A DNA stretch of 64,000 nucleotides from Escherichia coli (GTDB lineage Bacteria > Pseudomonadota > Gammaproteobacteria > Enterobacterales > Enterobacteriaceae). A program made the position numbers. The DNA is taken from the NCBI RefSeq assembly GCF_003334815.1, contig NZ_QOWO01000009.1; one strand, written 5' to 3'. Shown piece after piece: positions 46,501 through 49,500 of the stretch (its first letter is position 1; each line of letters begins with the position of its first letter).

Positions 46501-49500
46501 CATTTATGCGAAGTGCCACTGCTACAACATTGCATTCCCATTGACTGGCAAGCCGACGCTGCTCGCTGGCGCAATGGCGAGATGAATCTGGCGAACTGGT
46601 GCCAGCAACTGGTCGCCAGCAAAGCGATGGTGCCATTATTGCACCACTGGCTGATCATTCAGGGGCAACGCAGTATGCGCGGCCTGCGCATGAATACCCT
46701 CGGCTGGTTCGATTTTAAATCAGCGTGGTTTGCGCCACCGGATCCATGATTGCTGGTTGATAACAAAATCACTACACTAACGCCGTTCTCAACGGGGTGC
46801 CACGCGTACGCGTGCGCTGAGAAAATACCCGTCGAACCTGATCCGGATAACGCCGGCGAAGGGATTTGAGGCTCCTTCTCAAGTCCTTTGCCACTCTTTT
46901 TTGAGGTGCAAAGTGTTAAAAAAATGTCTGCCCCTGCTGTTGCTGTGCACAGCGCCCGTTTTCGCTAAACCCGTTCTGACTGTTTATACCTACGATTCCT
47001 TCGCCGCCGACTGGGGGCCTGGTCCGGTGGTTAAAAAAGCCTTTGAAGCCGACTGTAATTGCGAACTGAAACTGGTGGCGCTGGAAGATGGCGTTTCGCT
47101 TCTCAACCGTCTACGGATGGAAGGCAAAAACAGTAAAGCCGATGTGGTGCTGGGGCTGGATAACAACCTGTTAGACGCCGCCAGTAAAACCGGACTGTTT
47201 GCCAAAAGCGGTGTGGCAGCGGATGCCGTTAACGTTCCCGGCGGCTGGAATAATGACACTTTCGTACCGTTTGATTATGGCTACTTCGCCTTCGTTTATG
47301 ACAAGAACAAACTGAAAAACCCGCCACAAAGCCTGAAAGAACTGGTTGAGAGCGATCAAAACTGGCGGGTGATTTATCAGGATCCGCGCACCAGTACACC
47401 GGGGCTGGGTCTGTTGCTATGGATGCAAAAAGTCTATGGCGATGACGCCCCACAAGCCTGGCAGAAACTGGCGAAGAAAACGGTCACGGTCACCAAAGGC
47501 TGGAGCGAAGCCTACGGCCTGTTTTTAAAAGGTGAAAGCGATCTGGTACTGAGTTACACCACCTCTCCGGCTTATCACATTCTCGAAGAGAAGAAAGATA
47601 ACTACGCCGCCGCGAACTTCAGCGAAGGTCACTATCTGCAAGTGGAAGTCGCCGCCCGCACCGCTGCCAGCAAGCAGCCGGAGCTGGCGCAAAAATTCCT
47701 CCAGTTTATGGTTTCTCCGGCTTTCCAGAATGCGATCCCAACCGGCAACTGGATGTATCCGGTGGCAAACGTCACGCTGCCTGCCGGTTTTGAAAAATTG
47801 ACCAAACCCGCAACCACGTTGGAGTTCACGCCAGCCGAAGTGGCGGCACAACGTCAGGCATGGATTAGCGAATGGCAACGCGCCGTCAGCCGTTAATTCC
47901 CGGCTGGTTAATTCCAGGTGTAAGCGCCACCACGCTGGTGGTAGCGGTTGCGCTGGCGGCGTTTCTCGCCCTGTGGTGGAACGCGCCGCAGGATGACTGG
48001 GTGGCAGTCTGGCAGGACAGCTATCTGTGGCATGTGGTGCGCTTCTCCTTCTGGCAGGCGTTTCTCTCGGCACTGCTCTCTGTCATACCCGCGATATTCC
48101 TCGCCCGCGCGCTCTATCGCAGGCGCTTTCCGGGTCGGCTGGCGCTGTTGCGTCTGTGTGCAATGACCTTGATCCTCCCGGTGTTGGTCGCTGTTTTCGG
48201 CATTCTTAGCGTCTATGGTCGCCAGGGCTGGCTGGCAACACTCTGCCAATCGCTCGGTCTGGAGTGGACCTTTTCGCCCTACGGCCTGCAAGGTATTTTG
48301 CTGGCCCATGTGTTTTTTAATCTGCCGATGGCGAGCCGCTTATTACTCCAGGCACTGGAAAACATCCCCGGCGAACAGCGTCAACTTGCCGCCCAGCTTG
48401 GGATGCGTAGCTGGCATTTTTTCCGCTTCGTCGAATGGCCGTGGTTACGGCGACAAATCCCGCCGGTTGCTGCGCTTATCTTTATGCTCTGTTTCGCCAG
48501 CTTCGCCACCGTGCTATCGCTGGGGGGCGGTCCGCAGGCGACCACTATCGAGCTGGCAATCTATCAGGCGCTGAGTTACGACTACGATCCTGCCCGCGCG
48601 GCAATGCTGGCGCTGCTCCAGATGGTGTGCTGCCTCGGGCTGGTGCTGTTGAGTCAGCGATTGAGTAAGGCCATTGCGCCCGGCACCACGCTGCTGCAAG
48701 GCTGGCGCGACCCGGACGATCGTCTGCATAGCCGCATTTGCGACACGGTGTTAATTGTGCTGGCGCTGCTGCTGTTGCTGCCACCGTTACTGGCGGTGAT
48801 CGTCGATGGGGTAAATCGCCAGTTGCCGGAAGTGCTGGCACAACCGGTGCTGTGGCAGGCGCTGTGGACCTCGTTGCGTATTGCGCTGGCGGCAGGTGTA
48901 TTGTGCGTAGTGCTGACCATGATGCTGCTATGGAGCAGTCGCGAACTGCGGGCGCGGCAGAAAATGCTGGCGGGTCAGGTGCTGGAGATGAGCGGCATGT
49001 TGATCCTCGCCATGCCGGGGATTGTGCTGGCTACCGGCTTCTTTTTACTGCTCAACAACACTATCGGCCTGCCACAATCTGCTGACGGCATTGTGATTTT
49101 CACCAATGCGTTAATGGCGATCCCTTATGCGCTGAAAGTGCTGGAAAACCCGATGCGCGATATCACCGCCCGCTACAGCATGTTATGTCAGTCGCTGGGG
49201 ATTGAAGGCTGGTCACGCTTAAAAGTGGTGGAGCTGCGCGCCCTGAAACGTCCACTGGCGCAGGCGCTGGCCTTTGCATGCGTGCTGTCGATTGGTGATT
49301 TTGGCGTGGTGGCGTTGTTCGGTAACGATGATTTCCGCACCCTGCCGTTTTATCTCTACCAGCAAATTGGCTCCTATCGCAGCCAGGACGGTGCGGTCAC
49401 CGCGTTAATTCTGCTGCTGCTCTGTTTTCTGCTGTTTACCGTGATTGAAAAACTACCGGGGCGAAATGTTAAAACTGACTGATATCACCTGGCTTTACCA

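What the first reader, a model, noticed from the sequence alone, without database searches (positions are those of the whole stretch)
46775..46912. TPP riboswitch upstream of thiBPQ
Conserved THI-box sequence blocks precede the thiB GTG start, and the segment after the aptamer can pair across the gagg Shine-Dalgarno, consistent with translational control. Known element (the sroA RNA derives from it, as I recall).
Basis: partly seen in the sequence, partly recalled or inferred. Interest (0 to 1): 0.25.

Follow-up and report, generated by a model that had tools for sequence, protein, structure and literature searches.

The report
Known E. coli thiB TPP riboswitch
This is the already well-studied vitamin-B1 (thiamin pyrophosphate) sensing RNA switch in front of the E. 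coli thiamin-uptake genes thiBPQ, so the finding is correct but ordinary.

Summary
The observation and the interpretation both hold. Rfam's TPP model (RF00059) matches window 46783-46882 (+) over its full length at 65.9 bits (gathering score 54.3, E 1e-10 for the whole window). The genes downstream are thiB (GTG at 46913), thiP and thiQ. The stretch is 100% identical to E. coli K-12 MG1655, where RefSeq annotates a 'TPP riboswitch' at the same 100 nt. A hairpin (46886-46896 with 46903-46913, -11.6 kcal/mol) pairs across the GAGG Shine-Dalgarno and the first G of the GUG start. A competing anti-P1 ('antisequestering') hairpin (46859-46871 with 46877-46889, -15.5 kcal/mol) excludes both P1 and the base of that hairpin. 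This is the mechanism shown experimentally for this sequence by Berman et al. 2023 and Grondin et al. 2024. It acts on translation, with a second and less well understood effect on mRNA level. The SroA recollection is also supported by the literature. In 71 Enterobacteriaceae leaders all helices are kept; only P3 shows compensatory changes. By-products of the comparison: ERIC repeats sit in the P3 loop of 17 of 77 orthologs, and Rfam's threshold misses the five long-insert orthologs scanned; one species also has a similar-sized insert carrying an ERIC-core-like motif in the sequestering-stem loop. Novelty: already known. Interest: low.

The parts
46750..46755 (+). Candidate -35 hexamer TTGCTG (3 of 6 matches), directly after the sgrR stop codon (46747-46749)
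   Evidence: Read from the sequence, 17-nt spacer to the -10. Inferred only: the consensus scan found no strong promoter. Not well conserved outside Escherichia, Salmonella and Citrobacter.
46773..46778 (+). -10 hexamer TACACT (TACAAT in most other genera)
   Evidence: Conserved across the Enterobacteriaceae genera inspected. Lies 6 nt upstream of the published start site. PMC11487190 reports that the natural promoter is weak and not regulated by TPP.
46785..46785 (+). Transcription start site (+1 in the Grondin et al. numbering; Berman et al. use 46783)
   Evidence: Back-calculated from published positions that all fit the sequence: G35 = G46819 of CUGAGA, G121 = G46905 of the SD, U130 = middle of the GUG, toeprint C144 = C46928 (checked). 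The Salmonella 5' RACE start lies 129 nt upstream of the GTG (PMC3511261).
46787..46871 (+). TPP aptamer. P1 46787-92 with 46866-71; P2 46793-98 with 46825-31; P3 46799-46817; CUGAGA 46817-22; P4 46837-39 with 46860-62; P5 46843-46 with 46853-56
   Evidence: Rfam RF00059 at 65.9 bits, full-length alignment. In 71 orthologs 95.8% of cells pair, and P3 has compensatory changes at 5 of its 7 pairs.
46872..46889 (+). Linker (46872-46876, becomes the loop) and 3' strand of the anti-P1/antisequestering hairpin (46877-46889, pairs with 46859-46871)
   Evidence: 13 bp at -15.5 kcal/mol; probability 0.95-1.0 for the central 8 pairs in the ligand-free ensemble. 94.1% of cells pair in 71 orthologs, with a variable loop. 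UCUCA 46877-81 repeats P1 5' UCUCA 46787-91. Deleting or randomising it gives constitutive OFF (PMC10578472).
46886..46913 (+). SD-sequestering hairpin: CUUUGC 46886-91 with GCAAAG 46908-13, and CUC 46894-96 with GAG 46903-05; loop U6 46897-46902
   Evidence: -11.6 kcal/mol, 11 of 500 shuffles as stable. Probability at least 0.98 when the aptamer is locked. The outer 6 pairs are invariant in 71 orthologs while the loop varies. A mutation weakening the RBS pairing breaks regulation (PMC10578472).
46903..46906 (+). Shine-Dalgarno GAGG
   Evidence: Six nt upstream of the GTG. The G121C (G46905) mutant has low, unregulated expression (PMC11487190).
46913..47896 (+). thiB (tbpA), periplasmic thiamin-binding protein, GTG start
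   Evidence: TIGR01276 thiB equivalog at 647 bits, cut-off 317. RefSeq CDS at the same coordinates. Toeprint at +15/16 (PMC11487190).
47872..49482 (+). thiP, permease; overlaps the end of thiB
   Evidence: NF006953 ThiP equivalog at 1189 bits; RefSeq annotation.
49466..50164 (+). thiQ, ATPase; overlaps the end of thiP
   Evidence: NF008039 ThiQ equivalog at 445 bits; RefSeq annotation.

Best explanation
This is the E. coli K-12 thiB (tbpA) thiamin pyrophosphate riboswitch, an OFF switch in the 128-nt leader of the thiBPQ thiamin ABC-transporter operon. Transcription starts at about 46785 from a weak, TPP-independent promoter. The nascent RNA first forms the three-way-junction aptamer (46787-46871). 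When the next 18 nt emerge, the linker strand 46877-46889 can invade P1 and the P4 3' strand to form the anti-P1 ('antisequestering') hairpin. That hairpin also takes up CUUU 46886-89, the base of the downstream hairpin. With that base gone, the SD hairpin is weakened to a core of about -6 kcal/mol, so 30S subunits can load on GAGG/GUG (ON). If TPP binds while the aptamer is intact, P1 is held and the linker stays single-stranded. The full hairpin 46886-96 with 46903-13 (-11.6 kcal/mol) then buries the SD and the first base of the GUG (OFF). Sensing happens mainly during transcription. Reduced ribosome loading secondarily lowers operon mRNA; the factor responsible (Rho within early thiB, and/or an RNase) is unresolved. 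The stable aptamer-containing 5' fragment is what was catalogued as the roughly 93-100-nt RNA SroA. Shown here: the aptamer match, the gene context, the identity to K-12, the two competing hairpins with their energies, and their conservation. Taken from published experiments: TPP dependence, the toeprint, the mutational tests and the co-transcriptional preference. Inferred: the partial-melting view of the ON state and the origin of SroA's 3' end.
For: Rfam TPP at 65.9 bits against 54.3, E 1e-10, full length. thiB, thiP and thiQ equivalog hits. 100% identity to MG1655 and a RefSeq riboswitch feature at the same 100 nt. Anti-P1 at -15.5 kcal/mol and sequestering hairpin at -11.6; the two share 46886-89. 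The anti-P1 core has probability 0.95-1.0 with P1 at 0.0 in the ligand-free equilibrium ensemble, and the sequestering stem is at least 0.98 when the aptamer is locked. In 71 distinct Enterobacteriaceae leaders, P1, P2, P4, P5, anti-P1 and the outer sequestering stem pair in 94-100% of cells while the loops vary, and P3 shows compensatory changes at 5 of its 7 pairs. Large repeat insertions occur only in the apical loops of P3 and, in one species, of the sequestering hairpin, where a hairpin model predicts they are tolerated. Published for this sequence: TPP represses 2.3- to 3.9-fold; binding-site mutants are constitutive; weakening the RBS pairing abolishes the response; deleting or randomising nt 95-99 (46877-81) gives constitutive OFF; there is no intrinsic termination in vitro; the 30S toeprint falls 2.2-fold with TPP; sensing is preferentially co-transcriptional (PMC10578472; PMC11487190).
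Against: Nearest-neighbour thermodynamics predict only a small difference in SD accessibility between states. GAG stays paired to CUC in both, with P(unpaired) 0.01-0.09. Structures with the anti-P1 hairpin plus a nearly complete sequestering stem are within 1 kcal/mol of the 'open' one. An equilibrium model therefore does not by itself explain switching. This agrees with the modest published fold-changes and with kinetic, co-transcriptional control, but the ON-state structure is not settled. There is no two-sided covariation for P1, anti-P1 or the sequestering stem in this shallow sample, because they are nearly invariant, so comparative support for the expression platform rests on conservation, not covariation. 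The inner register of the sequestering stem is ambiguous. RNAfold's U46895-A46904 pair holds in only 35 of 71 orthologs, whereas a register with C46891 bulged pairs in 98.7% of cells but is 4.8 kcal/mol worse in E. coli. The published data on the mRNA-level mechanism conflict (Rho score 3.0 by ChIP against no bicyclomycin effect).
Confidence: 0.96

Rival explanations
1. Control acts mainly on mRNA level. TPP binding triggers Rho-dependent termination early in thiB, or RNase E cleavage, partly independently of the translation block. This would be an added or dominant layer on the same riboswitch.
For: ChIP-qPCR gives a Rho termination score of 3.0 for thiB (PMC5499598). Transcriptional lacZ fusions with 12 codons are repressed 1.6- to 3.9-fold by TPP, and 2.4-fold even with the GUG mutated (PMC11487190). 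A modest C-over-G stretch lies at 46935-47012 (C 33%, G 21%).
Against: Bicyclomycin did not change TPP repression of a 4-codon reporter, and only full-length transcripts were made in vitro (PMC10578472). The SD mutant loses mRNA-level regulation, so ribosome binding lies upstream of it. The composition bias is weak. Nothing in the sequence requires a separate RNA-level device.
Confidence: 0.3
2. It is a transcription attenuator. The hairpin before the GUG, or the anti-P1 hairpin followed by UUU, acts as a TPP-controlled intrinsic terminator, and SroA is the terminated product.
For: The anti-P1 hairpin (46859-46889) is followed by G then CC rather than a U-run, but its own 3' end is UUU. SroA (about 93-100 nt from 46783/46785) would end near 46877-46884. 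The sequestering hairpin has U6, but in its loop.
Against: The terminator scan found none in 46500-47100. Neither hairpin is followed by a U-tract. The anti-P1 hairpin forms without ligand, which would give the wrong polarity. Single-round in vitro transcription gave only full-length product at all TPP concentrations (PMC10578472).
Confidence: 0.02
3. The anti-SD works as in thiM. The linker UCUCAA (46877-82), freed when P1 forms, pairs directly with UUGAGG (46901-06) to mask the SD, instead of the local hairpin 46886-96 with 46903-13 doing so.
For: UUUGAGG (P1 3' strand) and UUUGAGG (SD region) are near-duplicates, so the linker is complementary to both. Grondin et al. call the architecture 'very similar' to thiM.
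Against: That pairing is worth only -2.5 kcal/mol against -11.6 for the local hairpin, and it is absent from the locked-aptamer ensemble. Deleting or randomising the linker gives constitutive OFF, not ON, the opposite of what an anti-SD role predicts.
Confidence: 0.03
4. The short RNA SroA released from this leader has a trans-acting regulatory role of its own, beyond being a by-product of the riboswitch.
For: In Salmonella, sYJ20/SroA rises about 3-fold with tigecycline or tetracycline while tbpA mRNA hardly changes. Its deletion reduces survival under tigecycline and is complemented in trans. A fitness defect in mice has been reported (PMC3511261).
Against: No validated target exists, only TargetRNA predictions with p of about 0.006. 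The deletion also removes the cis regulator of tbpA. E. coli did not show the induction. Nothing in the sequence here, such as a separate terminator or a conserved single-stranded seed, points to an sRNA module. The conserved blocks are all explained by the aptamer and the platform.
Confidence: 0.1

Closest known systems
E. coli K-12 thiB/tbpA TPP riboswitch (Rfam RF00059; the sroA locus)
   Same: It is the same element: 100% identical over 46600-47100 to MG1655, with the same annotated coordinates, flanking genes, start codon, SD, P1, linker and sequestering stem.
   Different: Nothing differs.
E. coli thiM TPP riboswitch
   Same: Same aptamer class. Translational OFF switch by SD sequestration, with an anti-P1 alternative, co-transcriptional sensing and a secondary effect on mRNA (PMC11487190, PMC5499598).
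   Different: In thiB the SD is masked by a local hairpin whose base is competed for by the anti-P1 hairpin, and the linker itself does not pair with the SD. mRNA-level control needs only 12 codons here, against 34 for thiM.
E. coli thiC TPP riboswitch
   Same: Same ligand and aptamer class. Dual translational and mRNA-level control, with a regulatory pause near the start codon (thiB pause at position 136, window 46920, per PMC11487190).
   Different: thiC has a larger platform, a strong Rho dependence (score 12 against 3.0), and needs only the aptamer domain to modulate mRNA levels.

Membership tests
TPP riboswitch (THI element, Rfam RF00059) | Scores at or above the curated gathering threshold of the family covariance model over the full model | tested here: met
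   65.9 bits against 54.3, model positions 1-105 of 105, E 1e-10 for the window.
TPP riboswitch (THI element, Rfam RF00059) | Three-way junction: P1 closing two arms, P2/P3 (pyrimidine sensor) and P4/P5 (pyrophosphate sensor) | tested here: met
   All helices align to the consensus structure. They are kept in 71 orthologs (95.8% of cells paired against 28-53% when partners are slid), and P3 has compensatory changes at 5 of its 7 pairs. The optional P3a stem is absent.
TPP riboswitch (THI element, Rfam RF00059) | Conserved ligand-contacting blocks: CUGAGA in the P2/P3 arm, and ACCUGAUCYGGNUAAUNCCNGCG-AGGGA in the P4/P5 arm | tested here: met
   CUGAGA at 46817-22 and ACCUGAUCCGGAUAACGCCGGCGAAGGGA at 46836-64. 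The blocks are invariant in all 71 orthologs apart from the single variable positions at 46851 (C/T) and 46859 (A/G).
TPP riboswitch (THI element, Rfam RF00059) | Sits in the 5' leader, sense strand, of a thiamin biosynthesis or transport gene | tested here: met
   It ends 31 nt before the thiB GTG; thiB, thiP and thiQ are confirmed by NCBIfam equivalogs.
TPP riboswitch (THI element, Rfam RF00059) | Binds TPP and changes downstream expression in response | not testable with these tools
   Not computable. Published for the identical sequence: TPP-dependent repression, loss in the binding-site mutants G17C and G35C, toeprint and smFRET (PMC10578472, PMC11487190).
Translational (SD-sequestering) expression platform | A helix that covers the SD and/or start codon, is mutually exclusive with a ligand-free alternative, and has no intrinsic terminator | tested here: met
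   Hairpin 46886-96 with 46903-13 covers GAG and G of the GUG. The anti-P1 hairpin shares 46886-89 with it and 46859-71 with the aptamer. No terminator-like site was found. Caveat: the equilibrium model leaves the inner SD pairs formed in both states.
SroA small RNA (Vogel et al. 2003) | A stable transcript of about 93-100 nt from the sgrR(yabN)-tbpA intergenic region that shares the tbpA start site | not testable with these tools
   There are no transcript data here. The location matches the description in PMC3511261. The original paper is not held. How its 3' end is made is unknown.

The most novel reading that the evidence does not exclude
The most novel reading still open concerns SroA, the stable 5' fragment of this leader. 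It may not be only debris of the riboswitch but a trans-acting RNA with its own targets, as the Salmonella antibiotic-stress data suggest. A lesser novelty concerns related genomes: this riboswitch family tolerates 130-220-nt ERIC insertions in the P3 loop (and, in one species, a similar insert in the sequestering-stem loop). Standard covariance-model annotation did not report the five long-insert orthologs scanned.
Probability: 0.08. Interest if true: 0.4.

Novelty: already known. Interest (0 to 1): 0.07.

Why it matters
For the window itself it matters little. This is one of the three classic E. coli TPP riboswitches. It is annotated in RefSeq and has been dissected by mutagenesis, co-transcriptional SHAPE, toeprinting and single-molecule FRET. 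What this check adds is confirmation that the first-stage reader can recognise a riboswitch and its expression platform from raw sequence. Two small points could be of use to specialists. First, natural repeat insertions mark the apical loops of P3 and of the sequestering hairpin as permissive sites, and they make annotation pipelines miss the riboswitch in several Citrobacter, Raoultella and related genomes. Second, comparative data favour a different inner register of the SD-sequestering stem in many relatives from the one minimum-free-energy folding gives for E. coli.

Tried and rejected
(1) Intrinsic terminator: the scan found none, and published in vitro transcription agrees. (2) Direct linker-SD pairing of the thiM type: only -2.5 kcal/mol, and contradicted by the linker-deletion phenotype. 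(3) Leader peptide or antisense ORF: ORFs of 20 aa or more overlapping 46740-46930 are 23-40 aa, start with TTG or GTG, and have no supporting signal; not pursued. (4) Covariation test of the expression platform: the 80 loci returned are all Enterobacteriaceae (ThiB 81-98% identical), and P1, anti-P1 and the sequestering stem are nearly invariant. (5) A sigma-70 consensus scan found no promoter. The -10 was instead located from the published start site and from conservation. (6) My first ortholog regex was too strict and missed most loci. A second pass picked up a GGGGTG inside the ERIC insert instead of the P2 strand; this was corrected. (7) In one search I specified the inner CUC:GAG pairs one base off, so the energies on the last two lines of that output are wrong; the corrected values are. 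(8) Vogel et al. 2003 could not be read, so the SroA claim rests on how later papers describe it. (9) A literature search for ERIC plus riboswitch found no report of ERIC inside a TPP aptamer, but the library is incomplete.
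Full report
**Observation.** A scan of the whole window against Rfam 15 gave a full-length hit to TPP (RF00059) at 46783-46882 on the + strand. 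It scored 65.9 bits against a gathering score of 54.3, with E 1e-10 and 8e-13 locally. The alignment shows P1, P2, P3, P4 and P5; only the optional P3a stem is missing.

**Context.** The GTG at 46913 opens a 327-aa ORF that matches the thiB equivalog TIGR01276 at 647 bits. thiP (47872-49482) and thiQ (49466-50164) follow, and sgrR ends at 46749. Window 46600-47100 is 100% identical to E. coli K-12 MG1655 and present in 5400 of 5426 complete E. coli genomes. RefSeq annotates a 'TPP riboswitch' at exactly 46783-46882 and thiB from 46913. The element is therefore the catalogued thiB/tbpA riboswitch.

**Anatomy.**
- *Start site.* Positions published by Grondin et al. all map consistently if +1 is 46785: G35 in CUGAGA, G121 in the SD, U130 in the GUG, and the toeprint at C144. 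Berman et al. number from 46783; this makes their P1 nt 5-9 and 85-89, their linker 90-99 and their 142-nt construct fit.
- *Promoter.* A -10 hexamer TACACT (46773-78) lies 6 nt upstream of the start and is conserved as TACACT or TACAAT across the genera inspected. The -35 (TTGCTG, 46750-55) is poor, and a consensus scan found no strong promoter. This fits the weak, TPP-independent promoter reported in PMC11487190.
- *Aptamer.* P1 is 46787-92 with 46866-71.
- *Anti-P1 hairpin.* Downstream, UCUCA (46877-81) repeats the P1 5' strand. Together with its 3' neighbours it can pair with 46859-71 as a 13-bp anti-P1 hairpin of -15.5 kcal/mol.
- *Sequestering hairpin.* A second hairpin pairs 46886-91 with 46908-13 and 46894-96 with 46903-05, at -11.6 kcal/mol. 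Only 11 of 500 shuffles fold as well. It covers GAG of the GAGG SD and the G of the GUG.
- *Mutual exclusion.* The two hairpins share 46886-89, and the anti-P1 hairpin shares 46859-71 with the aptamer. The three structures therefore form a chain of mutual exclusions.

**Mechanism.**
- *OFF state.* With the aptamer locked, as when ligand is bound, the sequestering stem has probability at least 0.98.
- *ON state.* Without constraints P1 has probability 0.0 and the anti-P1 core 0.95-1.0.
- *Published tests.* These support the same logic. TPP represses 2.3- to 3.9-fold. Binding-site mutants are constitutive. Weakening the RBS pairing abolishes the response. Deleting or randomising 46877-81 locks the switch OFF. 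Mutations favouring P1 or anti-P1 bias it as predicted. TPP lowers the 30S toeprint 2.2-fold. TPP works better when added during transcription (PMC10578472 and PMC11487190).
- *A caveat from my folds.* At equilibrium the inner CUC:GAG pairs persist in the ligand-free ensemble (P(unpaired) 0.01-0.09). Three alternative ON-side structures lie within about 1 kcal/mol of each other. On this view the ON state weakens the SD hairpin, from -11.6 to about -6 kcal/mol, rather than abolishing it. That is my inference. It agrees with the small dynamic range, with the 6.3-fold lower expression of the leader-containing fusion even without TPP, and with kinetic control.

**Rivals.**
- *Intrinsic terminator:* excluded. 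No site was found, and only full-length product is made in vitro.
- *Direct linker-SD pairing, as in thiM:* worth only -2.5 kcal/mol, and contradicted by the OFF phenotype of linker deletions.
- *A second layer at the mRNA level:* real but unresolved. Evidence for it is a Rho score of 3.0 by ChIP and repression of transcriptional fusions with 12 codons. Evidence against is the absence of a bicyclomycin effect on a 4-codon construct. I found only a modest C-over-G stretch at 46935-47012.
- *A trans role for SroA:* suggested only by the Salmonella data.

**Comparative test.** ThiB-anchored loci from 80 species genomes, all Enterobacteriaceae, gave 77 leaders, 70 of them distinct. I aligned these with the window as A1.
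- For the OFF structure, 95.8% of cells pair, against 28-53% for slid controls. Compensatory changes are confined to P3: 5 of its 7 pairs have changes on both sides, at most 22 sequences at any one pair.
- P1, P2, P4, P5, the anti-P1 hairpin (94.1% paired) and the outer sequestering stem (invariant) do not vary enough to show covariation.
- Support for the expression platform is thus conserved stems flanking variable loops, not covariation.
- The inner register is ambiguous. RNAfold's U46895-A46904 pair exists in only 35 of 71 sequences. A register with C46891 bulged (C92-G908, A93-U907, C94-G906, U/C95-G905) pairs in 98.7% of cells, with a U-G to C-G change in half the sequences. In E. coli, however, it is 4.8 kcal/mol less stable.

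**SroA.** PMC3511261, citing Vogel et al. 2003, describes SroA as encoded between yabN (sgrR) and tbpA. It contains the THI box, shares the tbpA start site (129 nt upstream of the GTG in Salmonella) and is about 100 nt long. The original paper could not be opened. How the 3' end arises is not known. Since no terminator exists, I favour a stable processing product protected by the folded aptamer; this is inference.

**Seen in passing.**
- In 17 of 77 orthologs the P3 region is 38-217 nt long, against 9-22 nt in the others.
- The long inserts carry GTGACTGGGGTGAGCG. I recognise this motif, from memory, as the ERIC2 primer core.
- A 131-nt piece of the L004 insert matches a median of 10 unannotated places in every E. 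coli genome at up to 86% identity, as expected of ERIC/IRU repeats.
- Folded in place, the insert forms a long hairpin stacked on P3, leaving P2, P4 and P5 intact (z = -4.8).
- Rfam still reports the aptamer for the four orthologs with 16-79-nt P3 regions that I scanned. It reports nothing at the gathering score for the five scanned with 136-217-nt regions (L004, L025, L029, L041, L068).
- Citrobacter sp. wls619 (L009) has in addition a roughly 125-nt insert, carrying the reverse complement of an ERIC-core-like motif, in the loop of the sequestering hairpin. It too gave no hit at the gathering score. I did not compare this second insert with the repeat by search.
- Both insertion sites are apical loops. 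This is what the hairpin model predicts for tolerated insertions.

**Verdict.** The element is already known in detail, and interest is low.

Noticed in passing
Related loci L004, L012, L025, L029, L040, L041, L048, L052, L057, L068, L073 (P3 region 133-217 nt); L061, L065, L075, L080 (67-80 nt); L010, L011, L014, L016 (38-41 nt). The window itself has the short P3 (46799-46817).: In 17 of 77 Enterobacteriaceae thiB leaders the apical loop of aptamer stem P3 holds an insert. The long ones are ERIC/IRU-type repeats of about 128 nt (median 10 copies per E. coli genome) that fold as an extension of P3. At its gathering score Rfam reports no TPP hit for the five orthologs with long inserts that were scanned (L004, L025, L029, L041, L068), so their riboswitch would go unannotated.
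   Followed up: partly
L009:1058-1185 (Citrobacter sp. wls619): A roughly 125-nt insert, carrying the reverse complement of an ERIC-core-like motif (CGCTCACCCCTGTCAC), sits inside the loop of the SD-sequestering hairpin, between CCTTTGCCACC and ATGAGGTGCAAAGTG. The same leader also has an ERIC in P3. Whether regulation survives is unknown, and I did not compare this second insert with the repeat by search.
   Followed up: partly
window 46890-46909: The inner register of the SD-sequestering stem differs between energy-based and comparative evidence. RNAfold pairs CUC 46894-96 with GAG 46903-05 (-11.6 kcal/mol), but its middle pair exists in only 35 of 71 orthologs. A bulged-C46891 register pairing CACU with GGUG is kept in 98.7% of cells but is only -6.8 kcal/mol in E. 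coli.
   Followed up: partly
window 46859-46913: In the equilibrium ensemble the SD stays largely paired even without ligand, and several anti-P1 plus partial-sequestering structures lie within about 1 kcal/mol of each other. The switch looks intrinsically leaky or kinetically controlled, in line with the small (2- to 4-fold) published regulation.
   Followed up: partly
window 46747-46785: The sgrR stop codon (46747-49) abuts the putative thiB -35, and no terminator-like site lies between sgrR and thiB. Read-through from sgrR into the riboswitch is therefore possible.
   Followed up: no
window 45073-45094: The mechanical sgrR ORF starts at TTG 45073, whereas RefSeq starts the CDS 21 nt later (45094). 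The NCBIfam SgrR model aligns from residue 8 of the long form, which agrees with the annotated start.
   Followed up: no
window 55633-55953 (+) and 10767-10960 (-): Four tandem hits to naRNA4 (RF02564; REP/BIME-type repeats) lie at an exact 85-nt spacing with identical scores (60.2 bits, just above the gathering score of 59.5). Two stronger copies (about 78 bits) lie at 10767-10960.
   Followed up: no
window 44800-45026 (-), 38671-38820 (+), 17080-17169 (-), 11364-11433 (-): Other Rfam hits above gathering score: SgrS (228.8 bits), the leucine operon leader (145.8 bits), PssrA, a family named for a Shigella plasmid sRNA but found here on the chromosome (105.5 bits), and STnc40 (84 bits).
   Followed up: no
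window 46935-47012: A modest C-rich, G-poor stretch (C 33%, G 21%) lies early in thiB. It is the only rut-like composition near the start, and is possibly relevant to the reported Rho score of 3.0 for thiB.
   Followed up: no
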